Part shown: in pieces, positions 14,386-62,289 of the stretch
Numbering within the stretch: position 1 is the stretch's first letter
How the letters are laid out: every line of letters begins with the position of its first letter
Source of the DNA: a virus
Virus record (IMG/VR): IMGVR_UViG_3300032018_000004
Span: 1-64,000 of that record
DNA length: 64,000 bases
Strand: one strand, 5' to 3'
Translations under genes and position numbers: made by a program
Notes under the pieces: generated by a model
What the model was told of the DNA's origin: nothing
Database searches by the model: none
Seen by the model: only the letters and a program-made list of their open reading frames with translations

Positions 14386-15164
14386 TTTATCTCCCCAATA
14401 AATTCCAAAACTTCTTTCTTAGATTTACCTTGCAATTTCAGGTAATATATGGTCTTATTTATTCTCAATCTCTTTTCAAAATCTGGTATATTAAAAGCCG
14501 AATCATGTGCTTGGTGCAACGTCAACAAATCATCAGCCAGATAAAATGGGATATTATTTCTCTTTACCGTTTCTCTAAAGTCATCATCATCGTAGGCAAC
14601 TCCAAGAGAAAACATCTCATCAAAACCACCAATTCTTTCATATTGGACTTTTGAAATTGTGCTACAAAAATGAAACATTGCATTCCTATGTTTTGAATGC
14701 TGATACCACATTTGAGGTTCAAAATAGAAGTTTTCTATATCACCTTCCAATTCATTATAATTCACGACATTTAAACAAGAACATACCACATATTGATCTT
14801 TGTTCTCTGCAAATGCTTTATCTAACCCCTCTAGCACATTCCCATGGTGCATGACTTCTGGGTTAGTTATTACAATAAATTCACCTCTTGCCTTTTCAAC
14901 TCCTAAATTAAACAAAGGGGAAGGGTTATAACAATCAAAGAATTCAGATTCTATACATACCTTATCGGCACAATCATCAAAAAACTTTAATGTTTTTAAC
15001 AACTTCTCGTGTTCTTCTGCGTCTTTTCTGTTCTTCACATCTTCAACAATTACCAATTCATAATCATCACGATCTTTATAGTGATGGATGAACGAAGCAA
15101 TTGTGTTCTTCAACTGTTCCGATCTTTTTAAATATGGCATTACTATTGAGTATTTTTTACTCAC
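14382..15164 (-). CDS. Glycosyltransferase family 2
   Basis: YSIVMPY...ELVIVED, NLGVEKARGEFIV, GGFDE...YDDDDF. Confidence 0.9.
   Translation of the reverse strand: MSKKYSIVMPYLKRSEQLKNTIASFIHHYKDRDDYELVIVEDVKNRKDAEEHEKLLKTLKFFDDCADKVCIESEFFDCYNPSPLFNLGVEKARGEFIVITNPEVMHHGNVLEGLDKAFAENKDQYVVCSCLNVVNYNELEGDIENFYFEPQMWYQHSKHRNAMFHFCSTISKVQYERIGGFDEMFSLGVAYDDDDFRETVKRNNIPFYLADDLLTLHQAHDSAFNIPDFEKRLRINKTIYYLKLQGKSKKEVLEFIGEIN
14962..14989 (-). promoter_or_regulatory. sigma28-type promoter inside GT gene, facing last GT and tail tube gene
   Basis: TAAAGTTT-N12-GCCGATAA. Confidence 0.7.
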
Positions 15165-16011
15165 AAATCTCTCCCATTAATTTAAGCAAAAAAATGTCTT
15201 CGGACTCTTTAATATTATCTTTTGTTACTATGTTTTCATATTTTGATGTGCTATTTGCCCCTGCGTACCAATGAACTCCTATTGTCTTCTCCATAAATTG
15301 GTATTGGATTTTCTCAAATAAAGAATCTGCTTGGCTCCATGCAAAGGGATAAATAGCCACAAATGGAATGTTTAAAATGTTAGATTCGCACCTTTCATTA
15401 AATTCTCCAAATTTCAATTTATTATGATGAAAAAAATGTAAGAATAAGTTACTACCAAGCGATTGATATTCAAGCTCTTTGTTTTTTGACTCCTCCAAAG
15501 CTATCCCAAGCAAATAACTAAAAACCATGCTATTCGGAGTAGACATTAAAAACCCTATGCTATGATACCCCCCAGAAAAACAAAAGCAGGCATTTTCTCC
15601 GGGACCAATAGATTTTATATGCAATTCATCCATTGACTTCAAATATAGAATATCAAAATCACTCCAAACTCCTCCTTCGGTTGAAAGAATATATAGCCTT
15701 AAAATATCTGATTTATGAACTTCAGAACATAATTCACCAATGTTAAAAATAGAAAAATCAAATTCTACGACATCAGTATTTGCAATACCAGATAGATCGG
15801 CAAAGCAGTCTTCCCCTTGGTATTCATAACTTTTTTGCTCCTTACTGCCCCAAGATTCCGCTAAAGAAATCTCATTTGAACAATAAACTTTTATCTTCCA
15901 ATCTGGGTTCAAAATTGAAAATGATTTAACAGTTAAGTACTTCATATAGGAAAGTTTTTTATTTCTTCCCCAATACAAATGAAGAATCTTTGGGATGTTT
16001 AAATCTACCAT
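15157..16011 (-). CDS. DXD sugar-binding glycosyltransferase (GT32/OCH1-like)
   Basis: IPKILHLYWG, KSDILRLYILSTEGGVWSDFD, C-terminal VHWY. Confidence 0.88.
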   Translation of the reverse strand: MVDLNIPKILHLYWGRNKKLSYMKYLTVKSFSILNPDWKIKVYCSNEISLAESWGSKEQKSYEYQGEDCFADLSGIANTDVVEFDFSIFNIGELCSEVHKSDILRLYILSTEGGVWSDFDILYLKSMDELHIKSIGPGENACFCFSGGYHSIGFLMSTPNSMVFSYLLGIALEESKNKELEYQSLGSNLFLHFFHHNKLKFGEFNERCESNILNIPFVAIYPFAWSQADSLFEKIQYQFMEKTIGVHWYAGANSTSKYENIVTKDNIKESEDIFLLKLMGEICE

Positions 16012-16566
16012 TTATTTTTTACATTTTATAAAAAAGAAAGCTCCATCAAAAAGTTCTTCCATAAAACACACGCTACTGTAATACTCTCCTAGTTTTTTCA
16101 TCCACCACTCTTTATTTTCTTGGATGGGGTGTAACTCGATGTCAAGCATTCTATCTGAATGATTTGCAATCCCAAATAATGCTATTAATGATATAGAAGA
16201 AATACATTTCAATGTCTCATCGATATCTTCAATAGATATATGCTCAAGCATATCATTGCAAAGCACATTATCAAATCTCTTTTTTGATTTGCAAAATGTC
16301 ACGATGTCAGAACATTTATGAGGAACGTCACTCAAAAATTTATTGCAACACTCTTTACTAATTTCAACCCCAAACGCCTCAACACCCATATCCAAAGCCA
16401 TCTTCAAATTATGCCCAGAGCCACAACCTATATCAAGCAATGTCCCTTCAAGGCATGACAAATATGCTGAAATTGGCTCATCTTTTTTATCATGCCTTGA
16501 GGACGAATAACTATTATACGCTGGAATTTCTTTATAAATTTTATCGTATATTTCTTTATTATTCAT
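16012..16566 (-). CDS. Class I SAM-dependent methyltransferase
   Basis: LLDIGCGSG motif I, GVEIS, DMLEHI. Confidence 0.9.
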   Translation of the reverse strand: MNNKEIYDKIYKEIPAYNSYSSSRHDKKDEPISAYLSCLEGTLLDIGCGSGHNLKMALDMGVEAFGVEISKECCNKFLSDVPHKCSDIVTFCKSKKRFDNVLCNDMLEHISIEDIDETLKCISSISLIALFGIANHSDRMLDIELHPIQENKEWWMKKLGEYYSSVCFMEELFDGAFFFIKCKK

Positions 16567-17540
16567 ATAAAATTCACATGAGTTAAATCTTTCATCATGG
16601 CTCCTAATATTTCATTATAGTTTTTATAATAGCAAATTTCACATATTTTCCCATTAACAGGAATGTGGCTTCTTGCAATAATATCTTTTAGATCAAATAC
16701 GCTTCCAAGATTCAATTCAACAGGAAGTTTTTTGGGCGCGTCCTTCTTATAGTATTGACTTCCGCAACAACTATATACTTGATAATCCGCACTTATTACT
16801 GGTTTTAAAAAACAAATATAGCAATCACCACCTTGTTCTGGATGTTCTCTGTTTTGATAAATAACTAAGCTATCATCAGCGCCAAAAGCGGTCACAATAT
16901 TTTTAATCCTAACCATATCAATTTCTTCGGGGTTAAATAAATCTGCCACCAATCTAACATGAGTAAAATTATGATCATTCGCAAAATTAATACATCTCAA
17001 AATCCCATAGATATTAGGAGTTTTGGAAACAACATAGCTAAACGCCCAGTCAACATCGGGGGCTGACTTAATTACCTCTTTCAATTTCTCTTCATAATTA
17101 TCCGTGAATGGGCGAAAATCAGCATGGCTAATCCGGCACCAAGTCACCTTATTTAATATTTCTGGTTTTATGTTGTCCAGAGCAAGGCCATTGTCCACAA
17201 GACCAACTTCAATACCTGACTGGATAAAATACTCAATAATTTCATTAATATTAGGATGCAGACAAGGGCTTCCGCCACCAGTAATCGTTACTGCTCTTGT
17301 TCCCAAATCCTTGCAAATGTCAATAATCTCCATCGCCTTAAACAAAGACATTTCAATTTCTCTGTCTTCGTTAGCGCAACTACAGAATGGGCATTTGAGA
17401 TTACATTTGTTTGTCGGGATAAATTGGATATGGATTGGGGGAATTTTTTTACTGTCATTGATGGAACTAATTACCCTTTCGTCACGCAATAACTTCACTG
17501 GTAGTGTATCAGCAGCGGTAAAACTTAACTTGTCAGACAT
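16563..17540 (-). CDS. Radical SAM protein with C-terminal Cys-rich (SPASM/twitch-like) region
   Basis: CNLKCPFC (CxxxCxxC), VTITGGG, C-terminal C...CC...CEIC. Confidence 0.9.
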   Translation of the reverse strand: MSDKLSFTAADTLPVKLLRDERVISSINDSKKIPPIHIQFIPTNKCNLKCPFCSCANEDREIEMSLFKAMEIIDICKDLGTRAVTITGGGSPCLHPNINEIIEYFIQSGIEVGLVDNGLALDNIKPEILNKVTWCRISHADFRPFTDNYEEKLKEVIKSAPDVDWAFSYVVSKTPNIYGILRCINFANDHNFTHVRLVADLFNPEEIDMVRIKNIVTAFGADDSLVIYQNREHPEQGGDCYICFLKPVISADYQVYSCCGSQYYKKDAPKKLPVELNLGSVFDLKDIIARSHIPVNGKICEICYYKNYNEILGAMMKDLTHVNFI

Positions 17541-17737
17541 TTACTCTCCATTTATTTTCTGCACCTTTTAATTGACTTATTCAAGCGTTCTATCGCAGCA
17601 TCTAACAATGCGGAATCAATGTTGGGGTTTTGCATTCTGACAAGTTTAGCATAATATAAAACTTCAAGCATAGCATTAACAGTATCATGACAACAAATAT
17701 TGCATGGTGCTTCAAATTGTGAATCCATCAATAATCC

Positions 17738-17764
17738 TTATCGGAATATGATTAGAAAACTTTA
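17738..17764 (-). promoter_or_regulatory. sigma28-type promoter upstream of the radical SAM/GT cassette
   Basis: TAAAGTTT-N11-TCCGATAA. Confidence 0.7.
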
Positions 17765-23727: not shown

Positions 23728-24975
23728 CTATCGTGTTGCCAACGCCACAAACGGAGAAAGCGTATCGCTGGTAGCTTCAGGAGGTACCAATGCCTGTGGC
23801 ATCCAACTTTGACCCGCAACATAAAATGCAAATCTAAATGCTTGCTGGTCATTTTCAAATTTAATATGCATAGAGGTATCAAAACGCATACCTTCACTAC
23901 CAGCGAGCATACCAAGCAAATACTGCTTCATGTTGACAAGCATGATGTCGCCAACAGTACCAAGAGACTTAGCATGATGGCTGAACACAATTGGCAATCC
24001 AAACAAGGTCGCGAAAGGAACGCCAGCCGCGCCATTTGCAGGCATAAAGACAGGAACTCCGCCTGTGCCGACAGCGAGGCTCATCGATGCAAGCTGGGGA
24101 AGGGTATTCGGATTGACAACCCAAACAGCATTAGAAGGGTCAAGACAACGAGAATACATCTTGATTACATTTTCCCAAAGAATGGTAGTTGAAGCTTGAC
24201 CAGTTTCAGCAGTTACGGAAACTAGAGCAGGAGCATTGAGTACACCCTGAGGCTGACCTGCCCCAGTGCCCTTTAGAATTACCCGATTCATTTCATAGTT
24301 GAAGCCATCAACAAAACCCTCACGAAGAATGTTCTCCATAGACATCGGAGAAAACCGGAGAATTTCATCAGAAGCGTAGGCAAGGCCAGTTACTTTATGA
24401 AGGGTAAGGTTGATATAGCCAAGCTTGACACTCTTGGGAGTAAGAGCTTCTTCCTCGTCAGTCCAATTCCAAGCTACATTGCCATAAACCAAATTCCCGG
24501 ATTTGTCGAAGCCATTGACATAGGGGATTTTAACAACATTGCTCTGCATGGGAATCTGAGTACAACGAGCCATCAGTTCATTCTTCTCACGGGAAGCAAC
24601 AAGCAATTCCTGACGAAATTCTTCAGGAACTACATAGCCGCCAGATTCACCATCAGAAACATTCTGAGACGGGGTGCCAGCAGCCTTGGTACAAACAGAC
24701 TCCCAATCGCCCAACTCTTTAGAAACCTTGCGAAAGCCACTTTGTGCAGCCTTTGCAACATCAAGGGCAAAGTGAGAGAAAGACTTGAATCCAGCCTTCT
24801 TATCCACCAATTTCTCGCCAACAACAATCCGCTTCTCTACTTCACCTACAGCTTCCTTAATCTTTGCATCAATCTCAGCAGCCATAGCCTCACGATCTTC
24901 AGCCATCACGCCCTTAACCGCCTCAACAGTGGTGTCCTTTACAAGGGCTTCAAATTCACTTTTTTCCATTGACAT
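23728..24975 (-). CDS. Major capsid protein (HK97 fold)
   Basis: GGYVVPEEF, GTGAGQPQGVL, TLFGLPI, SPFVALATR. Confidence 0.95.
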   Translation of the reverse strand: MSMEKSEFEALVKDTTVEAVKGVMAEDREAMAAEIDAKIKEAVGEVEKRIVVGEKLVDKKAGFKSFSHFALDVAKAAQSGFRKVSKELGDWESVCTKAAGTPSQNVSDGESGGYVVPEEFRQELLVASREKNELMARCTQIPMQSNVVKIPYVNGFDKSGNLVYGNVAWNWTDEEEALTPKSVKLGYINLTLHKVTGLAYASDEILRFSPMSMENILREGFVDGFNYEMNRVILKGTGAGQPQGVLNAPALVSVTAETGQASTTILWENVIKMYSRCLDPSNAVWVVNPNTLPQLASMSLAVGTGGVPVFMPANGAAGVPFATLFGLPIVFSHHAKSLGTVGDIMLVNMKQYLLGMLAGSEGMRFDTSMHIKFENDQQAFRFAFYVAGQSWMPQALVPPEATSDTLSPFVALATR

Positions 24976-25126: not shown

Positions 25127-26533
25127 TTAAAAAATGATGCCTTTTGCCTTTTTGATTCTTTCTTCTACGAGATCACTAATTGATTGAGTTTTAGATTTTG
25201 CAGAGAGAACTGATTCGATTACCATCTTTTTAACATCTTCTGGTGTAAAATCCAGATCAATCGTTTGTTTTTTAATTTCAAAATCAATTACATCTTTTTC
25301 TTTCACTTTCTCTGTATATACCTTATCGGCATTTTCTTCAGGAAACTTTAATGTTTTTTCAATCTTTTCGTCAACATACGCACGAATTGATTTAATTTCT
25401 TCAAGAATTTCTTGGAATTTATCGATATCACTTTTGGTGGCAGTTTCTGTTTCTTTAGAATCGATTATCTTTTCTTCTGTATTATCTTCCTGATTATCAA
25501 TAACCATGGTTTCTTTTGTTTCTTCCTGAACGTCCAATGATTTCTTCGTTGGCTTGTCGCAACCTTCATATTGGGGGCAATTTTCTCCATCACAACTACC
25601 GTCTTCCCCATCACAAGGCATAGCATCCTTTTCAGATTTTTCTTCCGCTGCATCTTCTACAACTTCAGTCATTTCTGTTTTTTCTTCGGTTGATTCTGTC
25701 TTTTCTTCGGATGATTCGTCAGAAAAGCTTCCCCAATCTTTCTCCATTGCTTTCCGCAATTTACTCTCTTCGTCTTTAAGGGCGAGAGAAATTTTTTCTT
25801 CCATGGCATCTCTCATCTTGGACATATTGCCTTCGCATTTTTGGGAAACGCTGAGGCTCCCATCCTCATTTTTGACCAATGGCATATAGCCCTCGATATC
25901 AATATGACCAATTACTTTTGCTTTTTCTTCGGTGGGTTCGGAAGTAAGCTCGATGTATTCTTTTGAGTCTTTTAGTTTTTCAACCATTGATTTTACTTCA
26001 GCAGATTTGATTTCCCCCCTCTCTAGGGAGGCGACCATTGATTTAGCCCCGTTAATGATGGTCGCGGAGGGATTCGCTGGTATTGTTACACATGATAATT
26101 CGAGAAGTTCACACTCTTCATATACAGTACAAGGGACTTTCCCATTTTTATCAACATATTTCTGGCTCTTTTCATTGTCATATATTCTAACTGGTCGAAA
26201 TCCAACTGAAAAACTTGACATGAAACCATTTTTGTAAAGAGAATAAATCTCATTTCCCGCTTCCGTATCTGCGAACTTGATTTTGAATTTCAAACCATTA
26301 GAGTCAGTCTTTTGCCAAATAGATTTCGCAACTGGGAGTGACCAGTAATCATGATTTACCAAAATTACTGGATTCATTCTATAATTCTTCAATCCTTCTT
26401 CCGTCCAAGCAGAAGCAAGAATCATTTCATTATGCCTATCGACCTCATTGGTAGATGCATAGCAAACAATTGAGTTTTCATCGTCCAACATTTCGCTTTT
26501 TTGTGCATACGCGAACATTTTATTTTCAGCCAT
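25127..26533 (-). CDS. HK97-family prohead protease with long acidic scaffold-like C-terminus
   Basis: NPVILVNHD, SFSVGF, ELSCVTIPANPSA. Confidence 0.93.
   Translation of the reverse strand: MAENKMFAYAQKSEMLDDENSIVCYASTNEVDRHNEMILASAWTEEGLKNYRMNPVILVNHDYWSLPVAKSIWQKTDSNGLKFKIKFADTEAGNEIYSLYKNGFMSSFSVGFRPVRIYDNEKSQKYVDKNGKVPCTVYEECELLELSCVTIPANPSATIINGAKSMVASLERGEIKSAEVKSMVEKLKDSKEYIELTSEPTEEKAKVIGHIDIEGYMPLVKNEDGSLSVSQKCEGNMSKMRDAMEEKISLALKDEESKLRKAMEKDWGSFSDESSEEKTESTEEKTEMTEVVEDAAEEKSEKDAMPCDGEDGSCDGENCPQYEGCDKPTKKSLDVQEETKETMVIDNQEDNTEEKIIDSKETETATKSDIDKFQEILEEIKSIRAYVDEKIEKTLKFPEENADKVYTEKVKEKDVIDFEIKKQTIDLDFTPEDVKKMVIESVLSAKSKTQSISDLVEERIKKAKGIIF
25323..25350 (-). promoter_or_regulatory. 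sigma28-type promoter inside protease gene, facing major capsid gene
   Basis: TAAAGTTT-N12-GCCGATAA ~350 bp upstream of capsid start. Confidence 0.75.
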
Positions 26534-31155: not shown

Positions 31156-31231
31156 TGGAGCTGGCAGCAGGAATCGAACCCGCGACAATCTACTTACAAG
31201 GCAGAGGCTCTACCGACTGAGCTATACCAGC
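31156..31231 (-). tRNA. tRNA-Thr (UGU)
   Basis: GCTGGTA/TGCCAGC acceptor, TAGCTCAGTCGGTAGAGC D-arm, CTTGTAA anticodon loop, GGTTCGATTCC T-arm, encoded CCA. Confidence 0.95.
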
Positions 31232-31234: not shown

Positions 31235-32971
31235 TTATATTAGCCTTACCCTTGGTGTCGCTTGCTCATAGAAACACATTCTTAAAGCAGCAAATTTATC
31301 GTCACTATTCCCATTTATTTTCTTCTTTACTGTCTTTTTATCGCTTACTTTAATTTTTCCAGAATTTTGATCTTCTCCATAGTCATATGCCATCATCTGC
31401 TCTTTCAATTCTGGATCATCTGGAATCATTGCGGAAGGCTCTTTCTTTAACCATTCGGCAACTTTCCACGCAAGCTCGTCGCGAATCAGACCAAATCTGC
31501 CTATATCACACTTCTTATCGCTTGGAGCAGAAACATAAATCTTTTTTACATTAAAGTGTTGACGAATCATTTCTTTATGACAAATTGGGCATTTAAAGAA
31601 ATCTTCGTCTGTATATGTTTTATCAACACCTTCGCATTCAGAGTTACAGCATTTCCAGTAAAACATTCTGGAAATTTTTGGAGGGATAGCAGCGCCAATT
31701 CCGTCGCTTTCTACATTGATCTGTTGACCGTCTAATTCAGCAGATATCTTTGCTATTTTGTCGGCAGATAAATCAACATCAATCCCACGCCACATGTCGA
31801 AGCCAGCGACATAGTTGCCATACTTCTTAGCTACACAACTATTGTCAGTTCCTTCATCTGCTATATCACAACCAAGAATTGGCTTGATTCCCTTAATTGC
31901 ATCTTTCCCGTATTGAGCGGTATATAATTTCCATCTTGTTACCGCATTATCAATATCGGTTTCGGAGAATAGAGAATTTGCAGTGCTGGTGGGATACAGG
32001 CCCAACACTTTATACGAAAATGCAGAATTAATTATCCTGCGCCATCCACCTTCAAGCGGTGGATACTCTTTGCCAGATGGAGATATGGCAATACAACCAA
32101 CTAAAAATTCCGGTACTTCAAAACAAGATGAATCTGGCTCTTCATCTTCCTTTAGAGGAATTGTCCAATCGTAAATACGCTCTACTGTTTTATCTCTCGA
32201 AACAGCCCCAGGAATTACATTTTCTCCGGTCATGACATTCGGATGAGCGAACGCGCTCAGGATTATTACATTTGCCCTTTGGTTCTTTACTTGATCATAT
32301 ATCCATCCAGAGCGTCTTTTAGGGTTATAAAGATTTAACTGCCTACTCCCATCACCTGATAAACAACCATCTTCCCCTCTAAATACCTCATTCGGGATGG
32401 CATCGCATTCATCATTCACAAAAAGTAAAAATGGGGCGTGAGAACCTGAGAATTTAGACTCTCTCTCCTCTTCGCTGCCGGAAGTAGGAACAGTCTTACC
32501 AAGAATAAAATGTTTGTTACTTCCTTCTGATTCTTCACCTTCTTTGTAACTTACATCATCTGTTATTTTAAGAGTGAGAATTTTATCTGTCTTGAAAAGT
32601 TTTCTGTTGGCAAGAACCATATCATTGATTTCGCTAAACAGTTTGCTTTTCAAATTCTCCTCTGGTGGTGCAGCAGTAGCAATTACCTGTGACTGTGGGA
32701 AGCACTTGTACCACCATGCAGAAACAGCGGCAGCGATGTACGTCTTCCCAACTCCCGTGGCTGATTGGCAAACAGTTACTTTGTTGTCCCTGACCGACTC
32801 TGCAATGATGACAAGATCAGGAGGGATATTTGCAATCCCTAATTCCTCTCTAAAGAATCCAACGGGATCGCTCTGGTATTGTGTTAGATCATTTCCAAGA
32901 GAGTTTTTAATCTCATCTTCGCCAAATGCCTTAATCAAGCTATCTAAGGCGGCATCGTCAAATTCAGTCAT
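31235..32971 (-). CDS. Terminase large subunit
   Basis: DPVGF, SATGVGKT Walker A, FVNDE Walker B, LGCDIADEGTD and ESDGIGA nuclease motifs. Confidence 0.93.
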   Translation of the reverse strand: MTEFDDAALDSLIKAFGEDEIKNSLGNDLTQYQSDPVGFFREELGIANIPPDLVIIAESVRDNKVTVCQSATGVGKTYIAAAVSAWWYKCFPQSQVIATAAPPEENLKSKLFSEINDMVLANRKLFKTDKILTLKITDDVSYKEGEESEGSNKHFILGKTVPTSGSEEERESKFSGSHAPFLLFVNDECDAIPNEVFRGEDGCLSGDGSRQLNLYNPKRRSGWIYDQVKNQRANVIILSAFAHPNVMTGENVIPGAVSRDKTVERIYDWTIPLKEDEEPDSSCFEVPEFLVGCIAISPSGKEYPPLEGGWRRIINSAFSYKVLGLYPTSTANSLFSETDIDNAVTRWKLYTAQYGKDAIKGIKPILGCDIADEGTDNSCVAKKYGNYVAGFDMWRGIDVDLSADKIAKISAELDGQQINVESDGIGAAIPPKISRMFYWKCCNSECEGVDKTYTDEDFFKCPICHKEMIRQHFNVKKIYVSAPSDKKCDIGRFGLIRDELAWKVAEWLKKEPSAMIPDDPELKEQMMAYDYGEDQNSGKIKVSDKKTVKKKINGNSDDKFAALRMCFYEQATPRVRLI

Positions 32972-33187: not shown

Positions 33188-33375
33188 TATTTATTCTCTT
33201 TAATTTCTGAAGAATCATCACGAAGAAAAGTAGGAATTACATTCTCCATCTTAGCAAAATGCAAGAAATTATTATCCGTGGTATGAAATGTCATTATTCC
33301 CTTTTTCCACATCTCCCAATCTTGTTCAACTTCAAGATATAGAATCCTATCAGTTCCTTTTTCAAAAAATCTCAT
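33187..33375 (-). CDS. Hypothetical protein
   Basis: Overlaps terminase small subunit stop. Confidence 0.5.
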   Translation of the reverse strand: MRFFEKGTDRILYLEVEQDWEMWKKGIMTFHTTDNNFLHFAKMENVIPTFLRDDSSEIKENK

Positions 33376-34070
33376 TTATTTCCACCTATGCGCCTAGCTA
33401 ACGAGACCCGAATGTTGTCTTGTGTTTCTTGGGGGAGCATTGCAAGAAACTGCTTAAAATCGACTGGCAATGTTCTCTCTGCATCTTTATCAAATAACCC
33501 TAAATTCTTGGAAAGAGCATCAAGGCCATAATTCTTCTGGAGCAATCGATAACTTTTTGGATTCCCCTTTCGGTCATATACAATATCTTGGATTGCTGCT
33601 GCTTGTTCGCGTGTCAATTTCTGTATTGGCTTTAGAACACCTTCTTCATCATAATAATCTTGGAGATTGCTATAGGCAACCGAAGCATATTCAGTTAAGA
33701 CACGCTCTTGAGTGATTTGAAGCTTCTTGGTGATCTTCTTCTGCCTATTCTCAATTTCCCGTTTCACACGCGGGATTGTGAGAAGCCTTCGTCCAAACAC
33801 AGCGGCGTTCCAAATAGGCCATCCAGCCTCTTGCGCTGCCTTTTCCTCGTTGTAGTGAATCACATATTCATTACAGAATCGCTCAACCTTGAAGGGGAGT
33901 TCATCCTTGTCTGTGATGCCATCTAATTCTTTGACTGCTGCAATATATTCTTCAGGTTCGTATGGTTGAGTTTGAATTATCTCTAATTCAGTGTCAATAT
34001 ATTCTTGTTTTACAGCAGTTTTTTCTTTTTTAGAGACTCTTTTTGGTTTTTCAATCATTAAATTCTTCAA
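33372..34070 (-). CDS. Terminase small subunit
   Basis: RFCNEY...AAQEAG...ITQERVL.E...AYSN...LSKNLGLF. Confidence 0.9.
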   Translation of the reverse strand: MKNLMIEKPKRVSKKEKTAVKQEYIDTELEIIQTQPYEPEEYIAAVKELDGITDKDELPFKVERFCNEYVIHYNEEKAAQEAGWPIWNAAVFGRRLLTIPRVKREIENRQKKITKKLQITQERVLTEYASVAYSNLQDYYDEEGVLKPIQKLTREQAAAIQDIVYDRKGNPKSYRLLQKNYGLDALSKNLGLFDKDAERTLPVDFKQFLAMLPQETQDNIRVSLARRIGGNK

Positions 34071-34274: not shown

Positions 34275-34302
34275 TTATCGGCATTTTACTTAAAAAACTT
34301 TA
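34275..34302 (-). promoter_or_regulatory. sigma28-type promoter upstream of terminase operon
   Basis: TAAAGTTT-N12-GCCGATAA. Confidence 0.75.
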
Positions 34303-35068: not shown

Positions 35069-35097
35069 ACTATAATCACAATATATTCTTTTGTCAA
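35069..35097 (-). promoter_or_regulatory. sigma70-type promoter
   Basis: TTGACA-N17-TATAGT. Confidence 0.7.
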
Positions 35098-35132: not shown

Positions 35133-35160
35133 TTATCGGAATATTTCATTAAAAACTTTA
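35133..35160 (-). promoter_or_regulatory. sigma28-type promoter at the head of the late strand
   Basis: TAAAGTTT-N12-TCCGATAA. Confidence 0.72.
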
Positions 35161-35211: not shown

Positions 35212-35238
35212 TTAAGTTTTCGGTAGAAATGCCGATAA
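35212..35238 (+). promoter_or_regulatory. sigma28-type promoter, divergent, facing ncRNA candidate
   Basis: TTAAGTTT-N11-GCCGATAA. Confidence 0.7.
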
Positions 35239-38998: not shown

Positions 38999-39027
38999 TT
39001 GACATAATCCAGAACATTTCCTATAAT
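38999..39027 (+). promoter_or_regulatory. sigma70 consensus promoter
   Basis: TTGACA-N17-TATAAT. Confidence 0.8.
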
Positions 39028-50445: not shown

Positions 50446-51846
50446 TTGCCGTTGTGGGGAATTTTTAGAGAAGGCGGCTGGGATTTGAAAATCTCCCTAA
50501 AAAGAATTGACCCAACATGCCTTCAAATACTTTCTGGATTAGATCAAATCAAGGAGTGTCTTTCCTATAAGTCTGAAATATGGGTTAAGGGTCCGTTCAA
50601 AAAACACAAGAAAATCATAACTAAAGATTTTGTATACGGAAAGAAAGAAAAATTCGTATATGCAGGATTTGAAAATAGAATTTCAGATTATGCAAAGAGA
50701 AGAGATATTGAATTTGAAGTGATTGGGGAAAGAGAAATCCTGACTCCGGTAAGGAAGCCGGAATTGGAGGGGATAACTCTAAGAGACTACCAATTACAGG
50801 CTGTAGAAGAAGCATTTAGACATCAGCAAGGGATCATACAAGCCGGGACGGGCACAGGCAAGAGCTATATGGCGATGGCAATTTGTTCCCGTCTTAAAAA
50901 TCCAAGCGTTCTTTTTCTTGTTCCGAATCTTGATCTTGCTACACAAATCACTAATGATTTCAAGAAGTTCGGATATGATGTTTCTAAGTTGGGTGGTGGA
51001 GAAAAAGAAATCAAACATCATATTGTTGTTTCTACCATCCAAACATATTCCAGATTAAATTTAGTAGAATTATCTTGCAATTATGATTTAGTAATTGTGG
51101 ATGAAGTTCATCTTGCTTCTGCGAAGAACGCGACCCTAGAAAAAATACTAAGCACATGCCTTGCTCCAATGAGGATTGCTTTTTCCGCAACCGTTCCAAA
51201 AGAGAATGAAAGGAAACTTGTGCTGGAGGGGTTGTTTGGTCCGATTATATTTGATATGGGTATTAAAAAAGGAATTGAAATGGATATATTAGCAACCCCA
51301 ACCTTAAAGTTGTTAAGAATCCCAATTAGCAAATCTATAGATGAAAAAATAAGTCAAGAGAAAACTTACAAAGCTGCCTATAAATACGGGATTGTTGAGA
51401 ATGATTCTCGGAATAGAATTATTGCTAGCACAGCGAAGTTGTTGACAGATGAGGGGAAGATTTGTATAATTTATGTGAATGAAATAGAACACTTAAATAG
51501 AATCTCCAGAGAATTGGACAAGTTGGGGGTTATTCATAAAAAAGTTCAGGGTGTTTTAGAGGGAAGTGATAGAGAAACAATTATCTCTAATTTTAAATCT
51601 AGGAGATTGAAGTGTGTTGTGGCAACCATATGGAAAGAAGGGACTGATATTCCAGTATTGGATGTGGTAATGTTGGCCGGTGGAGGAAAAGCCGAAAGAA
51701 CTCAATTGCAAATATTTGGTCGTGGATTCAGGAAGGCAGAAGGGAAGGATGGGGTTTTGATTTACGATTGTGTTGACTGTTATAAATATCTGGCTGTTCA
51801 TTTTGCAATTAGGATCAATTTATATTTGGAACTAGGTTGGATTTAG
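50446..51846 (+). CDS. Superfamily 2 DEAD/H helicase (true start probably ~10 codons in)
   Basis: LRDYQ, GTGTGKS, IVDEVH, FSAT, EGTDIP, QIFGRGFR. Confidence 0.93.
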   Translation: MPLWGIFREGGWDLKISLKRIDPTCLQILSGLDQIKECLSYKSEIWVKGPFKKHKKIITKDFVYGKKEKFVYAGFENRISDYAKRRDIEFEVIGEREILTPVRKPELEGITLRDYQLQAVEEAFRHQQGIIQAGTGTGKSYMAMAICSRLKNPSVLFLVPNLDLATQITNDFKKFGYDVSKLGGGEKEIKHHIVVSTIQTYSRLNLVELSCNYDLVIVDEVHLASAKNATLEKILSTCLAPMRIAFSATVPKENERKLVLEGLFGPIIFDMGIKKGIEMDILATPTLKLLRIPISKSIDEKISQEKTYKAAYKYGIVENDSRNRIIASTAKLLTDEGKICIIYVNEIEHLNRISRELDKLGVIHKKVQGVLEGSDRETIISNFKSRRLKCVVATIWKEGTDIPVLDVVMLAGGGKAERTQLQIFGRGFRKAEGKDGVLIYDCVDCYKYLAVHFAIRINLYLELGWI

Positions 51847-55488: not shown

Positions 55489-55698
55489 ATGGAGATTAGT
55501 AAAGAATGCATTGAAAACTTAATTAATGGGGCAGCGCTGAACGGGCCTGGAATATTAAGCCATTATGAAGCAAGCTTAATTTTTAAGATTGCACTAGAAA
55601 GAATATCGCCCGACAAAAATATAGGTGAATTGGCTATTGAAATCTTGAGGGAGTTATTTCCGGCCACAAGACCAATAGGAATATTGAATAATGACTAG
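55489..55698 (+). CDS. Hypothetical protein
   Basis: AGGAG RBS. Confidence 0.5.
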   Translation: MEISKECIENLINGAALNGPGILSHYEASLIFKIALERISPDKNIGELAIEILRELFPATRPIGILNND

Positions 55699-56245
55699 CC
55701 AAAATCAAAAATCTCTCTGGCTCTTTGGAATCGCTTTCTACATTCTAATTGCAATTGGATTCATGCAAGCAGAGAAGAAGGCCGATAAGCTCCAAGAGCA
55801 AGTAGATACACTAACAAATGAACTAAGTGGGAATTATAACCTTGACTTTTACTGGACAGATAATGTAAAATTATCAGCACCAGAAGAACATATCCTCGCT
55901 AAGAACATTTATTACGAATCTGGGGTTGAAGGATATGATGGAAAGCTTGCTGTTGCCCAGGTGACATTAAACAGACTAGAATCTGGAAAATGGGGGAATA
56001 CGATAAAGGAAGTCGTGTATTCCCCAAACCAGTTTTCCTGGACATTGAAGAAGAAACAGGAAGAGCCGAATGGGGTGTTGTGGGAAGAGAGTAAGCGTGT
56101 TGCTAGAGACTTCAATAGGGGATTAAGGATTAAGGAATTGGATTCAGCAACATCATATCATTCTGATTCGGTTAAGCCTGGGTGGGCTGTTTATGGTGAG
56201 CCAATCATTAAGATTGGAAAGCACATTTTTTATAGACAGTCATAA
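55691..56245 (+). CDS. Cell wall hydrolase (SleB/Hydrolase_2) with N-terminal TM
   Basis: LAKNIYYES, AVAQVTLNR, QFSW, IGKHIFY. Confidence 0.92.
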   Translation: MTSQNQKSLWLFGIAFYILIAIGFMQAEKKADKLQEQVDTLTNELSGNYNLDFYWTDNVKLSAPEEHILAKNIYYESGVEGYDGKLAVAQVTLNRLESGKWGNTIKEVVYSPNQFSWTLKKKQEEPNGVLWEESKRVARDFNRGLRIKELDSATSYHSDSVKPGWAVYGEPIIKIGKHIFYRQS

Positions 56246-56246: not shown

Positions 56247-57365
56247 TTATCGAAATAATTCACTTTCTTTGTTAGAGGAACTATAAATGCCTCTATTGTG
56301 GATATTAATAGCGCCGTTTGACTTATCAACTACGCCACATGAAGAACAGGTTTGGCTTGTATATGCTGGATCAACGGAGAGAAGATAGAAACCTTCTTCT
56401 TCAGACCGTAATGCCAGTTTAGCCAGAACCTGCTTGTAAGACCAATATTGAAGTCTGTTTTTAAATTTAGTATTTAGTTTCGATTTGTATTTTACATTCT
56501 TAAGGTCTTCAACCACTACGAGATTATACGACCCAAGGTCGATGTTGTTTACAATTTGGTTAGTGAGATTTTTCTTGTGGATTAGTAGCTGTTTATAGTT
56601 CTTAGAGCCTCGTTTTTTGTCGGCAAGTTTTGCATAAATCTGTTTTAATTCCTCACCATAGTGAAAGCCATTTGAATCAGAAATTAACTTATTATAGCCG
56701 CAATCCAACCCGATTGATTTGCCATGTTGTTTTACTTGTGCTTGTTCTTTCTCATAGAAAAATGTGACGTAGAAATTTCCATTGATTTTAGATAATTGAA
56801 TAGTATTTTTTCGAGTCCAATCTTTAAATTTCAAACTATTCTTGTGCTGTTTAATTGGGACATTAATTGTTTGGTATAGGCGCTTATCTTTCTTATACGG
56901 AGTAGTTATCCTAATAAATGAGTCAAATGAACTGCTTTCCTTAATGTTCCATAAATGATATCCTAAATTTATTGAAATAGTTTTTACGTCAATTTTAATA
57001 CGTTTCAAATAATTAATGTTTAGTTCTGAATATTTCTTATTTAAAAACGATTGATGGATATCCTTTATCTTACACTTGGTATAAAGTTTCTGATATCGCT
57101 TGAATGTTTTGTTTTTTGTGTATTTTAGATTTGAGCGGATTATTTCAGAAGCTGTTTTATAGGATAACTCTTTCCACGAACTATATTCAAAAACATCATT
57201 ATGGAGATCTTTGCATGACATTAACTTCTTGAGTGGCAACTCGCCTTTGACGATGAGATCGATATACAAAATTACACACTGCTTAAAGTCCTCATGAATC
57301 TTTTCGAGGAGGGCAAGTTTGCGTTTATTTGCGAATTTAAGAGTATGTTTAGATGATCTTATCAT
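56247..57365 (-). CDS. tnpB: TnpB/Cas12f-like RNA-guided nuclease homologue lacking RuvC-III; no transposase adjacent
   Basis: IGLDCG (RuvC-I), VVEDLK (RuvC-II), VDPAYTSQTCSSCG, then directly NGAINI with no second CxxC or D-x-D. Confidence 0.85.
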   Translation of the reverse strand: MIRSSKHTLKFANKRKLALLEKIHEDFKQCVILYIDLIVKGELPLKKLMSCKDLHNDVFEYSSWKELSYKTASEIIRSNLKYTKNKTFKRYQKLYTKCKIKDIHQSFLNKKYSELNINYLKRIKIDVKTISINLGYHLWNIKESSSFDSFIRITTPYKKDKRLYQTINVPIKQHKNSLKFKDWTRKNTIQLSKINGNFYVTFFYEKEQAQVKQHGKSIGLDCGYNKLISDSNGFHYGEELKQIYAKLADKKRGSKNYKQLLIHKKNLTNQIVNNIDLGSYNLVVVEDLKNVKYKSKLNTKFKNRLQYWSYKQVLAKLALRSEEEGFYLLSVDPAYTSQTCSSCGVVDKSNGAINIHNRGIYSSSNKESELFR

Positions 57366-57372
57366 AATTATG

Positions 57373-57401
57373 TTGACTTTGGTTGAATTAATTATTATAG
57401 T
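57373..57401 (+). promoter_or_regulatory. sigma70-type promoter for downstream plus-strand genes
   Basis: TTGACT-N17-TATAGT. Confidence 0.6.
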
Positions 57402-57404
57402 ATC

Positions 57405-57432
57405 TTATCGGCATAATTAACTAAAAACTTTA
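57405..57432 (-). promoter_or_regulatory. sigma28-type promoter facing tnpB-like gene
   Basis: TAAAGTTT-N12-GCCGATAA, ~40 bp upstream of ATG. Confidence 0.75.
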
Positions 57433-57816
57433 ATGAAATTAGAAAAGGAAATAACTATGGGCTTGTCGTGCTCGTGTCCAGATTGGGATGGTGATGGGTG
57501 GTATTACATTCCAGCCAGTGAAGATTTCACAAAACTAAATACTAAAACTCGCAAACGGTGTTGTTCCTGTAAAGAGTTAATTGATGTTGGGGCTGATAGT
57601 TTGAAATTCAAGCGTTGTCGTGGGCCAATTTCCGATGTTGAAGAGCGTATTTGTGGAGATGAGGTTAGAATTGCCCCTTGGTATATGTGTGAGAAGTGTG
57701 GTGAGCAATACATGAATTTGGAAGACTTGGGCTATTGTATTTATATTGGAGACAATATGTTCCAGTTGTTGGAAGAATATAAGGAAATGCAGAAATGGAG
57801 GAGTGAAAATGCTTAA
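57433..57816 (+). CDS. Cys-rich hypothetical phage protein
   Basis: RKRCCSCKELI...MCEKC. Confidence 0.7.
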   Translation: MKLEKEITMGLSCSCPDWDGDGWYYIPASEDFTKLNTKTRKRCCSCKELIDVGADSLKFKRCRGPISDVEERICGDEVRIAPWYMCEKCGEQYMNLEDLGYCIYIGDNMFQLLEEYKEMQKWRSENA

Positions 57817-58087
57817 ATACCTAACATTTTTCTTCTTGCTATTTCTGCTAATTTTGTGTATACCTTATTTATCAAATGCCCAGACATACACAGAGCCGGA
57901 TGAATACTACCAGAACATCCCTAAATTGAAAGACTGTCAAGAAATTGTAATTGATGAGCGTTTTATTGGTGGAAAACTGAGCAAGAAAACTATATGCTTT
58001 TGGGAAGTTAAGATTGCTTCTGGAGTTATGACATTCTGGAAGGAAATTGGGAAAGACCATTACGGATTTTGTGAATAGGGGAATGAG

Positions 58088-58294
58088 ATGAAGAGTTGGA
58101 TTGTTCGCAATGTTCCAGAGTTCCCGAAGCTAATGAAAATGAATAGCTGTGGATGTGTTGTCCTATTTATTAATAATTCTAAAGGGTTTGTAGTAAAATC
58201 TGATTTTGACGTGATTGATGATTACATGTATGAGGTTGGACATGAAAGTGACGAGTGGGAGATTTCTCAGTTTGTTTTTTTGACGGAATTATAA
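58088..58294 (+). CDS. Hypothetical protein
   Basis: FPKLM...VVLF...G.VV pattern; RBS. Confidence 0.55.
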   Translation: MKSWIVRNVPEFPKLMKMNSCGCVVLFINNSKGFVVKSDFDVIDDYMYEVGHESDEWEISQFVFLTEL

Positions 58295-58460
58295 AACTAC
58301 AGAATTGAGAAATAATAATTTTGTGAATAGGAGAGTGGGATGGTAGAAACAGTTTTATCTCTTGCTTTGGAAATGGGGAAATGCCTTCTACATATATGAT
58401 GCTGAAATTTAAGAAATATCTTGAGAGTGTCGTGATTGAAAACATATAAAGGTAAACACT

Positions 58461-58913
58461 ATGAATGAAATTCTTTTCCTACTAATTTTAGGCCATTTGT
58501 TTGGAGATTATTTGCTCCAGTCATATTGTCTTGCCGTCAATAAGAAGAAATATTCATTGATTGGTTGGAGTTCTGCAACTTATCATTGCCTTATTTATAC
58601 CACTACAATTTATGGATTTTTATTAATTGAGGGAATTAAATTAAATTTCATTCAATGCCTCTTAATTTTCCTGTCACATTTTATCATTGACAAGTTTCCA
58701 GTTATTGAATACTATATGAAAGTGATGGATATTAGAAGTTGGGATAGAGAGCTTCCTAAAACAGGCAATGGTGTAGATTTTGAAAATAAAGAACCAATTA
58801 CAATTATTCAATTAGTTACGACATCGTTTGGGTCGTTTGTTTATATTATGTGTGATAATACATTTCATTTATTCTTTATGTATTTAATTCTGAAATTCAG
58901 TATTGGAGTATAA
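58461..58913 (+). CDS. DUF3307-like membrane protein
   Basis: GHLFGDYLLQ, HCLIY, SHFIID, DNTFH. Confidence 0.88.
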   Translation: MNEILFLLILGHLFGDYLLQSYCLAVNKKKYSLIGWSSATYHCLIYTTTIYGFLLIEGIKLNFIQCLLIFLSHFIIDKFPVIEYYMKVMDIRSWDRELPKTGNGVDFENKEPITIIQLVTTSFGSFVYIMCDNTFHLFFMYLILKFSIGV

Positions 58914-61325: not shown

Positions 61326-61609
61326 TCATGGAGATGAAAAAACCAAAGCCCTGCCCGTTCTGTAATGCCATACCTCACACTTTTGAAGGTATGGGTGGAA
61401 CATGTGTACTGTTGGAATGAAGATGGTAGTTGCGGTCATCGTGGTATCATTATGACGTTGGGGGAATGGAACACCCGCACCCAACCAAAATATAAATGGA
61501 AAGACCAATATGAATGGATGAATGCCCACACCAAAATGTATAGAGGCGATAACGCGTCTGATTGTATGATGAATGCATTTAACGCTGGACGAGAATTAAA
61601 GGAGAATAA

Positions 61610-62233
61610 ATGAAAATTTTTGTAGGCAAATATTGTTCGTGGTGGGGAGCGTATCAGATTGCCGATCTCTTGCAGCATTTAGGAGTATCAGAAGATAGAT
61701 GCTATAAAATTGGGGAATGGCTTTCCAACACCAAACTCCAGACTTTTCTTGAATGGATTGATTCTAAAAAGAAGAGAGCAATAAATATTCATATTCACGA
61801 CTACGACATTTGGAGCGCAGATCATACCCTTTCCATTATCATATTGCCAATGCTCAAAATGATTCAAGAGGACAAGCATGGAGCACCATTTGTGGATGAT
61901 GAGGACGTTCCAGATGAATTGAAGTCAACCAATGCCCCACCTAAAAATAATGAATGGGATGTAGATTTGTTATGGTTCCAACGCTGGGACTGGGTGCTGG
62001 ACGAGATGATTTTTGCGATGTCCTCAATTTTAGATGATTCGTGGGAGGAAAAATTTCATTCTGGTAACATGGATTTAGTTTGGGAAAAGTGCGAGGGTTC
62101 TGATTTGTCTGAAATGAAGGATGGGCCAAATAATACCCATGTCTTTGATGCGGTAGGGTATAAAATTTATGCAGACAGAATTCAAAATGGGTGTAGGCTT
62201 TTGGGACGATATTTTCGCTCACTTTGGACCTGA
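61610..62233 (+). CDS. Hypothetical phage protein
   Basis: YDIWSADHTL, HGAPFVDDEDVP, WDWVLDEMIFA, GRYFRSLW. Confidence 0.8.
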   Translation: MKIFVGKYCSWWGAYQIADLLQHLGVSEDRCYKIGEWLSNTKLQTFLEWIDSKKKRAINIHIHDYDIWSADHTLSIIILPMLKMIQEDKHGAPFVDDEDVPDELKSTNAPPKNNEWDVDLLWFQRWDWVLDEMIFAMSSILDDSWEEKFHSGNMDLVWEKCEGSDLSEMKDGPNNTHVFDAVGYKIYADRIQNGCRLLGRYFRSLWT

Positions 62234-62261
62234 TTTATTTCACTACTACACTTAAAATCGT

Positions 62262-62289
62262 TAAAGTTTTGATACATTTATGCCGATAA
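62262..62289 (+). promoter_or_regulatory. sigma28-type promoter upstream of HTH gene
   Basis: TAAAGTTT-N12-GCCGATAA. Confidence 0.75.

What the first reader, a model, noticed from the sequence alone, without database searches (positions are those of the whole stretch)
14962..62289. Eight near-consensus flagellar sigma28 (FliA/SigD-type) promoters define a second transcription class
Seen: TAAAGTTT-N11/12-(G/T)CCGATAA at 14962, 17738, 25323, 34275, 35133, 57405 (minus) and 35212 (one mismatch), 62262 (plus). Established: TAAAGTTT-N11-GCCGATAA is the FliA consensus. The sites face the terminase operon, major capsid, glycosylation cassette, tail tube, the tnpB-like gene, an HTH gene and the ncRNA candidate; two are embedded in coding sequence. 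Early genes instead have TTGACA/TATAAT-type promoters. No sigma factor gene is in this window. Inference: late transcription uses the host motility sigma (tying development to the flagellated state) or a phage FliA-like sigma encoded elsewhere; six of eight have a 12-bp spacer, hinting at a variant specificity.
Basis: partly seen in the sequence, partly recalled or inferred. Interest (0 to 1): 0.75.

Follow-up and report, generated by a model that had tools for sequence, protein, structure and literature searches.

The report
Flagellar-type (sigma-28) promoters in a phage
An uncultured sediment phage with no sigma factor gene of its own starts its capsid, packaging, tail, helicase and some accessory genes from near-perfect copies of the promoter that bacteria use for late flagellar genes, so it probably depends on its host's motility sigma factor, though no transcript data exist.

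Summary
Seven exact TAAAGTTT-N11/12-(G/T)CCGATAA sites and one with a single mismatch lie at the stated coordinates, against 0 expected by chance. All 8 point at the next gene. By my reading 6 of 8 are intergenic in a window that is 90% coding.

The boxes stay at six matching gene positions in related uncultured phage contigs while the spacers change. The spacer is 12 nt at 32 sites, 11 nt at 14 and 10 nt at 1, of 47 sites. This is how a two-box sigma-type promoter behaves.

I found no sigma, RNA polymerase or FlgM gene in the 81-kb contig or its large relatives. The four large contigs share only virion and replication genes. The best reading is therefore host sigma-28 (confidence 0.55).

The class is not purely late, because it also heads a DnaB operon, a TnpB-like gene and a non-coding stretch. 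The 12-nt spacer does not point to a new specificity, because bacterial flagellin, FlgM, FlgN and chemoreceptor genes carry it too.

The host is unknown and no RNA data exist. One distant relative carries a cut-off sigma region-4 fragment.

This scan had already noted the same wiring on other DNA, including two relatives of this phage. Six literature searches found no paper on it.

The parts
14962..14989 (-). Sigma-28-type promoter, 12-nt spacer. It lies inside the GT2 glycosyltransferase gene (14382-15164) and faces a second transferase-like gene (13756-14385) and the tail tube gene (13321-13743).
   Evidence: Exact match. Pfam gives GT2 and tail tube and Anp1-like. The same intragenic position is kept in G001 (55834) and G002 (68453) with different spacers.
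17738..17764 (-). Sigma-28-type promoter, 11-nt spacer, TCCGATAA box. It heads a ~59-codon ORF (17552-17731) and the radical SAM gene (16563-17540).
   Evidence: Exact match. A start codon lies 6-9 nt after the box. Matching sites are G001 48043, G002 71745 and G175 22291.
25323..25350 (-). Sigma-28-type promoter, 12-nt spacer. It lies inside the prohead protease/scaffold ORF (25127-26533), 347 nt before the major capsid gene (23728-24975).
   Evidence: Exact match. Pfam gives Peptidase_S78 and Phage_capsid. The site is kept before the capsid gene in G001, G002, G174, G175 and G183, with 2 mismatches in G172p. In G176 the best candidate has 3 mismatches.
34275..34302 (-). Sigma-28-type promoter, 12-nt spacer. 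It heads a small ORF (34051-34230), the small terminase (33372-34070) and the large terminase (31235-32971).
   Evidence: Exact match. Pfam gives Terminase_2. Matching sites before the small terminase gene are G001 25284, G002 93808, G174 21063 and G172p 36838.
35133..35160 (-). Sigma-28-type promoter, 12-nt spacer, TCCGATAA box. It heads a 114-aa cysteine-rich ORF (34698-35042). A sigma-70-type promoter (35069-35097, 11 of 12) follows it in tandem.
   Evidence: The ORF matched no Pfam or PHROG family.
35212..35238 (+). Sigma-28-type promoter with one mismatch (TTAAGTTT), 11-nt spacer. It faces a stretch without a credible ORF (about 35239-35574) and two HNH genes.
   Evidence: HNH Pfam hit for 36307-36711. 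The RNA candidate comes from earlier notes and I did not test it.
57405..57432 (-). Sigma-28-type promoter, 12-nt spacer, 39 nt before the TnpB-like gene (56247-57365).
   Evidence: Gene and promoter are both kept in G174 (72.6% aa identity), where the promoter has an 11-nt spacer.
62262..62289 (+). Sigma-28-type promoter, 12-nt spacer, 21 nt before a 68-aa winged-helix gene (62311-62517). A DnaB-like helicase gene follows (62573 to 64099 of the contig).
   Evidence: The matching promoter plus gene in G001 is at 141110.
38999..39027 (+). Perfect sigma-70-type promoter (12 of 12), one member of the other promoter class.
   Evidence: Two more perfect ones lie at 40471-40499 (-) and 51442-51470 (+).

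Best explanation
The eight sites are promoters of the class-3 flagellar type. Host core RNA polymerase carrying the host's sigma-28 (FliA/SigD-type) factor would bind the TAAAGTTT box at -35 and the (G/T)CCGATAA box at -10. It would start a few bases after the second box and transcribe the packaging, head, glycosylation/tail and helicase operons, a TnpB-like gene and a non-coding stretch. The small-gene block at 39-52 kb is started by ordinary sigma-70 holoenzyme from consensus promoters. The phage would therefore need no sigma of its own, and its development would be tied to cells in which sigma-28 is active. Shown here: the sites, their placement, their conservation, and the lack of any detectable phage sigma or RNA polymerase. 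Inferred: that they fire, and that the host factor reads them. The rule that sigma-28 is released only when the flagellar basal body is finished is recalled from the E. coli/Salmonella literature and was not tested here.
For: 1. There are 7 exact sites plus 1 with a single mismatch, against 0 in 100 shuffles. All 8 are co-directional with the next gene, and the script counted 5 as wholly intergenic where 10% of the DNA is non-coding (P = 0.0005; 6 by my reading). Several stand 20-45 nt before a ribosome-binding site and start codon.
2. Both boxes equal the FliA-bound motif rows of E. coli, for example the tar row in Table 2 of PMC4183435 (passages read).
3. Boxes are retained and spacers changed at six matching positions in relatives. 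These are before the capsid gene, inside the GT2 gene, before the small terminase gene, after the 139-aa head-tail gene, before the HTH gene and before the TnpB-like gene. Before the capsid gene the site sits in different coding contexts: a scaffold tail in G000 and an AAA+ lid in G174.
4. With spacers of 9-14 nt allowed, 47 sites in 8 contigs use only 12 nt (32 sites), 11 nt (14) or 10 nt (1).
5. No sigma was found. Pfam r2, r4 and r4_2 gave nothing on G000. r2 and r4 on G001-G005 gave only one sub-threshold r4 hit. TIGR02937 and TIGR02479 gave nothing over threshold on G000-G003 and on the phage contig of G172. TIGR02937 on 10 more contigs gave only a fragment in G183. Pfam on 86 ORFs of G000 and PHROGs on 10 of them showed no sigma and no RNA polymerase.
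6. phmmer shows that the four large contigs share only virion and replication genes, so no conserved specificity factor is seen.
7. G001 covers the part that G000 lacks, and G000 covers the part that G001 lacks (synteny). A conserved sigma gene should therefore have appeared in one of them.
8. Cellular sigma-28-type promoters with exactly this 12-nt form exist. Among 78 ORFs downstream of bacterial matches, 3 are flagellin, 3 chemoreceptor, 2 FlgM and 2 FlgN.
Against: There is no transcript evidence, because all 7 listed runs that hold this DNA are sediment DNA runs.

The host is unknown. Two relatives were binned into Bacteroidota MAGs. The Lutibacter MAG has no FliA-type sigma over threshold, and 3% of its ORFs have a Shine-Dalgarno word against 41-49% in the phages. 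The Melioribacteraceae MAG is flagellated, but the flagellin promoters of its family differ. Of 20 boxes, 18 have an 11-nt spacer and 19 have C at box position 5, whereas the phage always has G there and mostly a 12-nt spacer.

Every contig is incomplete (G000 86% by CheckV). One distant relative, G183, ends in a 60-aa Sigma70_r4_2 fragment directly upstream of its capsid promoter.

If sigma-28 is already active at infection, it is unclear how early and late genes are separated in time.
Confidence: 0.55

Rival explanations
1. A phage-encoded sigma factor with FliA-like specificity reads the sites. It would lie in the unassembled part of the genome or be too diverged to detect.
For: All contigs are fragments (81-86% complete for the three largest). 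G183 carries a Sigma70_r4_2 fragment (27.3 bits, cut-off 25.7) whose gene runs off the contig end, right upstream of its capsid promoter. Earlier notes of this scan describe other phages with their own FliA/WhiG-like sigma (not checked by me). The near-perfect identity of the boxes is typical of phage-specific promoters.
Against: No sigma-like hit over threshold in G000, G001, G002, G003, the phage contig of G172, or 10 further contigs apart from G183. The G183 fragment has no homologue in the other 7 contigs or in three large collections. No non-replication, non-virion protein is shared by the four large contigs. G000 and G001 cover each other's missing parts.
Confidence: 0.2
2. A host factor other than the flagellar sigma reads the sites. 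Examples are a sigma-28-type factor of a non-motile host, as in chlamydiae or actinomycetes (recalled), or sigma-70 holoenzyme redirected by an unrecognised small phage protein.
For: The host is unknown. One relative was binned with a Lutibacter MAG that has no FliA-type sigma over threshold. Many small phage ORFs have no known family.
Against: The Lutibacter link rests on binning only and is contradicted by Shine-Dalgarno use. Neither box resembles the sigma-70 hexamers that the same phage uses in perfect form elsewhere. No small protein is conserved across the clade.
Confidence: 0.12
3. The sites are not promoters. They would be operators for a phage DNA-binding protein, such as the 68-aa winged-helix protein, or remnants of a mobile cassette.
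For: A small HTH gene follows one site here and three near-identical sites in G001.
Against: The two boxes are neither direct nor inverted repeats of each other. Spacing is fixed at 11-12 nt. Orientation always follows the downstream gene. Several sites stand at promoter distance from a ribosome-binding site. The HTH gene has a homologue only in G001, whereas the sites occur in all relatives.
Confidence: 0.05

Closest known systems
Class 3 flagellar and chemotaxis promoters read by sigma-28 (FliA of E. coli and Salmonella; SigD and WhiG in other phyla, recalled)
   Same: Both boxes are the same as in the FliA-bound sites of E. coli (Table 2 of PMC4183435, passages read). The layout is two-box with a fixed spacer. 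Some sites are intragenic and drive the next gene, like the flhC-internal motAB promoter described in that paper.
   Different: They stand in a phage and head virion, replication and accessory genes. The spacer is 12 nt at 6 of 8 sites, whereas the E. coli rows I read have 11. A G follows the second box at all 8 sites.
Phage temporal classes set by a phage-encoded sigma (phiEco32 and 7-11 gp36, abstract of PMC8948821 seen in the listing; SPO1 gp28 and gp33/34 and T4 gp55, recalled)
   Same: A second promoter class with its own consensus heads the later genes, while the first genes use host sigma-70 promoters.
   Different: No phage sigma gene is found here or in the large relatives, and the consensus is that of a cellular alternative sigma.
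Sigma factors carried by phages of Bacillota (PMC9429907, title and start of abstract only)
   Same: Both link phage biology with host alternative-sigma programmes.
   Different: There the phage brings the sigma. Here the phage appears to bring only the promoters.

Membership tests
Sigma-28 (FliA/SigD-type) dependent promoters | A TAAAGTTT-like -35 box and a GCCGATAA-like -10 box | tested here: met
   7 exact sites and 1 with one mismatch. The boxes are the same as in the E. coli FliA ChIP motif rows.
Sigma-28 (FliA/SigD-type) dependent promoters | Fixed spacer of 11 nt between the boxes | tested here: inconclusive
   2 of 8 sites have 11 nt and 6 of 8 have 12 nt. The 12-nt form occurs before flagellin, FlgM, FlgN and chemoreceptor genes in bacteria. 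In 101 genomes of one class there are 10 sites with 12 nt (2 of them in the genome chosen as centre) and 8 with 11 nt.
Sigma-28 (FliA/SigD-type) dependent promoters | Placed upstream of, and co-directional with, the transcribed gene | tested here: met
   8 of 8 are co-directional. The distance from the box to the next start codon is 6 to 576 nt.
Sigma-28 (FliA/SigD-type) dependent promoters | Transcription starts just downstream of the -10 box and needs sigma-28 holoenzyme | not testable with these tools
   No RNA run holds this DNA.
Sigma-28 (FliA/SigD-type) dependent promoters | A sigma-28 gene is present in the cell where the promoters work | not testable with these tools
   The host is unknown. 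The MAG that holds relative G001 has flagellin and a 215-aa FliA-like ORF below the curated cut-off, but binning is weak evidence of a host.
Regulon of a phage-encoded sigma factor | A sigma-70-family gene in the phage genome | tested here: not met
   Nothing over threshold in G000 or the large relatives (plus per-ORF Pfam). The only exception is a 60-aa region-4 fragment in the distant relative G183. All contigs are incomplete.
Regulon of a phage-encoded sigma factor | The factor is conserved among phages that share the promoters | tested here: not met
   phmmer core of the four large contigs holds only virion and replication proteins. The G183 fragment has no homologue in the other 7 contigs.
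Promoters of a phage single-subunit or multi-subunit RNA polymerase | A phage RNA polymerase gene and a contiguous conserved promoter of about 20 bp | tested here: not met
   No RNA polymerase family appeared among the 86 ORFs scanned. The largest ORFs are a gpJ-like tail tip protein and the tape measure candidate. The motif has two boxes with a variable spacer.

The most novel reading that the evidence does not exclude
A whole clade of uncultured sediment siphoviruses, about 80 to 145 kb assembled and carrying no sigma gene, has wired its virion, replication and accessory operons to the host's flagellar sigma factor. Productive infection would then be conditional on the host being in its motile, sigma-28-active state, as would suit a phage that adsorbs to flagella. 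Together with the other cases this scan has noted, it would be a general and so far undescribed phage transcription strategy.
Probability: 0.45. Interest if true: 0.8.

Novelty: new variant of a known kind. Interest (0 to 1): 0.62.

Why it matters
Phages are known to switch promoter classes with their own sigma factors, RNA polymerases or activators. A phage that carries only the promoters of a host developmental sigma would be different. It would couple its gene expression to a host cell state, namely motility, and would predict that non-flagellated or fliA-mutant cells are non-permissive after adsorption. It would also give a sequence-only handle for annotating the transcription units of uncultured phages and for narrowing their hosts to bacteria that have sigma-28. 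The claim is directly testable, because the boxes equal the E. coli FliA consensus.

Tried and rejected
Host identification failed.
- Nucleotide search of 22 kb against 50,697 phage records found nothing. Protein searches found only distant phages of many hosts.
- A 20-kb stretch against 166 Melioribacteraceae genomes gave tRNA-like and methylase matches and no clear CRISPR-spacer-like hit. The methylase neighbour G022:C2 shares nothing else with the phage.
- Searches of bacterial genomes with the endolysin and the TnpB-like protein gave only relative G001, or nothing.
- An ESM Atlas look-up of the CCA enzyme gave mixed phyla.

Expression could not be tested. No RNA holder is listed among the 7 runs that hold the DNA, so I did not use read laying.

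Hidden-sigma leads were rejected.
- The weak region-4-like hits in G002 and G172p lie in a replication-organiser-like protein with an N-terminal winged helix.
- A 72-aa region-4-like ORF in G172p has no homologue in the other phages.
- The unknown ORFs of G000 show no sigma-like features by eye.
- No FlgM was found in 6 contigs.

I could not extend the G183 sigma fragment. The portal search found no complete relative.

I rejected the idea that the 12-nt spacer marks a new specificity.

Literature searches found no paper describing a phage regulon of host sigma-28 promoters. I read PMC8244752 at its three FliA passages, which concern host promoters only. I did not run structure prediction.

Full report
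**What the window is.** The window is the first 64,000 bases of a single 80,974-base IMG/VR virus contig. The contig is linear and CheckV rates it 86% complete. Genes at 1-35.1 kb lie on the minus strand. They are the small and large terminase, portal, prohead protease/scaffold, HK97-type capsid, a radical SAM and glycosyltransferase cassette, a lambda-like tail tube, a tape measure candidate and a gpJ-like tip protein. From 35.2 kb onward the genes run on the plus strand. They include HNH nucleases, a C5 methylase, a block of small genes, an SF2 helicase, a replication-organiser-like protein, a SleB-type wall hydrolase, primase and a DnaB-like helicase. Beyond the window come an RNA repair cluster, DnaE, a ligase and NAD salvage genes. 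No cultured phage is close. The DNA is held by sediment metagenome runs only.

**The observation.** One search found seven exact matches to TAAAGTTT-N11/12-KCCGATAA at the stated coordinates, and none of 100 shuffles gave a match. One search added the eighth site at 35212 (one mismatch) and showed that the rest of the contig has no site with at most one mismatch. Each box alone is only about twofold enriched, so the signal is in the pairing. All eight sites point at the next gene. The script counted five as wholly intergenic where 10.2% of the DNA is non-coding (P = 0.0005). I count six, because the 76-codon opposite-strand ORF over 34275 looks spurious. The distance from the second box to the next start codon is 21 to 105 nt at five sites and 6 nt at one. 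At the two intragenic sites it is 347 and 576 nt. Conservation extends slightly beyond the boxes. An A-rich stretch and AT precede the first box, AT usually precedes the second box, and a G follows it at all eight sites.

**Conservation in relatives.** A capsid search in IMG/VR gave 17 related loci. I read four large relatives:
- G001: 144,548 bases, capsid 80% identical.
- G002: 113,349 bases, capsid 73% identical.
- A 107,614-base contig in a MAG labelled Lutibacter (here G172p): capsid 63% identical.
- G174: 74,715 bases.

I also read three smaller ones, G175, G176 and G183.

Sites with at most one mismatch number 14 in G001, 6 in G002, 4 in G172p, 5 in G174, 4 in G175, 5 in G176 and 1 in G183. 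G174, G175 and G183 overlap in content, so they are not independent. The reversed-pattern control gave 0 in all five contigs tested.

The sites recur at six matching gene positions:
- Before the capsid gene: G000, G001, G002, G174, G175 and G183, with two mismatches in G172p. In G176 the best candidate has three mismatches.
- Inside the GT2 gene: G000, G001 and G002.
- Before the small terminase gene: G000, G001, G002, G174 and G172p.
- After the 139-aa head-tail gene: G000, G001, G002 and G175.
- Before the small HTH gene: G000 and G001.
- Before the TnpB-like gene: G000 and G174.

The boxes are kept while the spacers differ. The G000 and G174 promoters before the TnpB-like gene differ in spacer length, 12 against 11 nt. 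Before the capsid gene the site sits in a scaffold-like tail in G000 but in the lid of an AAA+ ATPase in G174.

Only one reading frame is open through the motif, since the other two meet a TAA. In that frame the boxes read Leu-Lys-Phe and Ala-Asp-Lys, and the same codons are kept in G000, G001 and G002 although synonyms exist (my reading of the sequences). More distant relatives, with capsid identity of 46% or less and mostly high G+C, had no site with up to two mismatches in the 11 stretches I held. With spacers of 9 to 14 nt allowed, the 47 sites use 12 nt (32 sites), 11 nt (14) or 10 nt (1), and never 9, 13 or 14. This is how a two-box promoter read by a sigma factor behaves.

**What it matches.** Both boxes are those of the FliA-bound sites of E. 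coli. In Table 2 of PMC4183435 (passages read) the tar row has the same two boxes with an 11-nt spacer, and the motAB, fliC, flxA and tsr rows are close variants. That paper also reports that 30 of 52 FliA sites are intragenic and that some drive the next gene. This is a precedent for the two intragenic phage sites.

**The other promoter class.** Between 34 and 54 kb there are three perfect TTGACA-N17-TATAAT matches (38999+, 40499-, 51442+) and three with 11 of 12. From base composition I estimate about 0.02 perfect matches by chance. The tool's shuffles cover only its looser definition, which gave 77 found against a mean of 70.

**Who reads the sites.**
- Pfam Sigma70_r2, r4 and r4_2 gave nothing on G000 at E up to 10.
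- r2 and r4 on G001-G005 gave only one sub-threshold hit, in a 439-aa frame that continues as a phosphoesterase-like protein.
- TIGR02937 and TIGR02479 gave nothing over threshold on G000-G003 or on the phage contig of G172.
- Pfam on 86 ORFs of G000, and PHROGs on 10 of them, showed no sigma and no RNA polymerase.
- FlgM was absent from six contigs.
- phmmer of every G000 ORF against the ORFs of G001, G002 and G172p shows that the only proteins shared by all four are virion proteins, an SF2 helicase, the replication organiser, primase, DnaB, an HNH-containing 384-aa protein and DnaE.

A factor that reads boxes this strictly conserved should itself be conserved, and none is seen. By synteny, G001 bridges the two ends of G000 and G000 covers the region at the ends of G001. 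A conserved sigma gene should therefore have shown up in one of them. This last point is inference.

**The one contrary lead.** Contig G183 (capsid 46% identical) ends in a 60-aa open frame that matches Sigma70_r4_2 over the curated cut-off (27.3 against 25.7 bits). The gene runs off the contig and stops just before the capsid promoter. It has no homologue in the other seven contigs. I could not extend it from IMG/VR, the protein collection or the metagenome contigs.

**The 12-nt spacer.** They come from many phyla, including Desulfobacterota, Bdellovibrionota/Oligoflexia, Acidobacteriota, Treponema and Melainabacteria. I called the first ORF of at least 60 codons downstream of each match and set aside the phage's own relative. 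Among the 78 ORFs, Pfam found flagellin in 3, chemoreceptor signalling domains in 3, FlgM in 2 and FlgN in 2. In 101 genomes of the class of one such genome, the 11-nt form occurs 8 times in 7 genomes. The 12-nt form occurs 10 times in 7 genomes, and 2 of those lie in the genome chosen for having it. Cellular sigma-28-type promoters therefore come with either spacer.

**The host.** G001 is also filed as a contig of a Melioribacteraceae MAG, and G172p as a contig of a Lutibacter MAG.
- The Melioribacteraceae MAG has flagellin and a 215-aa FliA-like ORF below the curated cut-off, and 34 of 41 genomes of that family have flagellin.
- Their flagellin promoters differ from the phage sites. 18 of 31 flagellin-type ORFs carry a box. 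Of the 20 boxes, 18 have an 11-nt spacer and 19 have C at the fifth position of the first box, where the phage always has G.
- In that MAG, 10 of the 11 exact phage-type sites and both perfect sigma-70 consensus matches lie on the phage contig itself.
- A crude count of Shine-Dalgarno words before ORFs gives 41-49% in the four phages, 15% on one Melioribacteraceae contig (34 ORFs) and 3% on two Lutibacter contigs (34 ORFs).
- The Lutibacter MAG has no FliA-type sigma over threshold.

I conclude that the Lutibacter link is probably a binning artefact, that the Melioribacteraceae link is possible but unproven, and that the host is unknown.

**Verdict.** The sites are almost certainly promoters of sigma-28 type. 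That the host's own sigma-28 reads them is the most economical reading (0.55), because nothing in about 450 kb of four large related contigs looks like a specificity factor. It is unproven for three reasons: there are no transcripts, no host, and all contigs are fragments. The class is a second class but not a late class. How timing is achieved is open if sigma-28 is already active in the infected cell.

**Earlier notes of this scan.** The same wiring was noted before on other DNA. This includes a 144.5-kb phage with 14 sites and a 113-kb phage with 6 sites. Both match what I counted in G001 and G002, so these notes are probably about those relatives. It was also noted in several unrelated uncultured phages, and two notes describe phages with their own FliA-like sigma. 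These are unchecked AI notes apart from the two counts I repeated. They reduce the uniqueness of this window but not the interest of the phenomenon. I found it in no paper in six searches.

Noticed in passing
L262 (G183:C1) 17114-17293, minus strand: A relative's contig ends in a 60-aa C-terminal fragment matching Sigma70_r4_2 over the Pfam cut-off. Its stop codon lies just before the capsid-gene promoter. The rest of the gene lies beyond the contig end and I found no homologue anywhere I searched.
   Followed up: yes
window 38999-39027 (+), 40471-40499 (-), 51442-51470 (+): Three perfect TTGACA-N17-TATAAT promoters lie within 20 kb. In the 3.7-Mb MAG that holds relative G001, the only two perfect matches lie on the phage contig itself.
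   Followed up: partly
G001 (= contig 1 of a Melioribacteraceae MAG) and G172:C153 (in a Lutibacter MAG): Two large relatives are filed inside Bacteroidota MAGs. Shine-Dalgarno use (phages 41-49%, Lutibacter contigs 3%, Melioribacteraceae contig 15%) suggests that at least the Lutibacter assignment is a binning artefact.
   Followed up: partly
window 17726-17738, minus strand: Start codons lie 6-9 nt after the second box of the 17738 promoter, so the ~59-codon ORF before the radical SAM gene may be translated from a leaderless or nearly leaderless mRNA. In G001 the matching site has ATG 7 nt after the box.
   Followed up: no
window 56247-57432; G174 57486-58733: The TnpB-like gene and its sigma-28-type promoter are both conserved in relative G174 (72.6% aa identity), so the gene is a stable part of these phages and not a recent insertion. 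No close relative of the protein was found in bacterial genomes.
   Followed up: partly
L001 12179-15483 (contig 73179-76483): DnaE is in three ORFs here (a 318-aa PHP part, a 103-aa piece and a 679-aa part with a UDG-like end). G001 and G002 have one ORF of about 1,100 aa.
   Followed up: no
L001 1573-3099 (contig 62573-64099): The DnaB-like helicase has a weak homing-endonuclease (Hom_end) hit between its N- and C-terminal domains, so it may hold an intein.
   Followed up: no
G001 3404, 80751 and 141110 (minus strand): Three near-identical cassettes, each a sigma-28-type promoter plus ribosome-binding site plus a tiny gene. The one at 141110 heads the homologue of the window's 68-aa winged-helix gene.
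   Followed up: no
G174 about 9911-10400, compared with window 25351-25800: In G174 (and, by tblastn, in G001 and G002) the ORF before the capsid gene ends in an AAA+ ATPase, and the capsid promoter lies in its lid region. In G000 the same place is an acidic scaffold-like tail.
   Followed up: no
window 55691-56245: The SleB-type wall hydrolase has a hydrophobic N-terminal segment conserved in G001 (by eye). It may be a membrane-anchored or signal-anchor-release endolysin.
   Followed up: no
window 31156-31231, minus strand: A tRNA-Thr (TGT) gene lies between the large terminase and the 110-aa ORF. It is 73-80% identical to tRNA genes of Melioribacteraceae genomes, which says little about the host.
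   Followed up: partly
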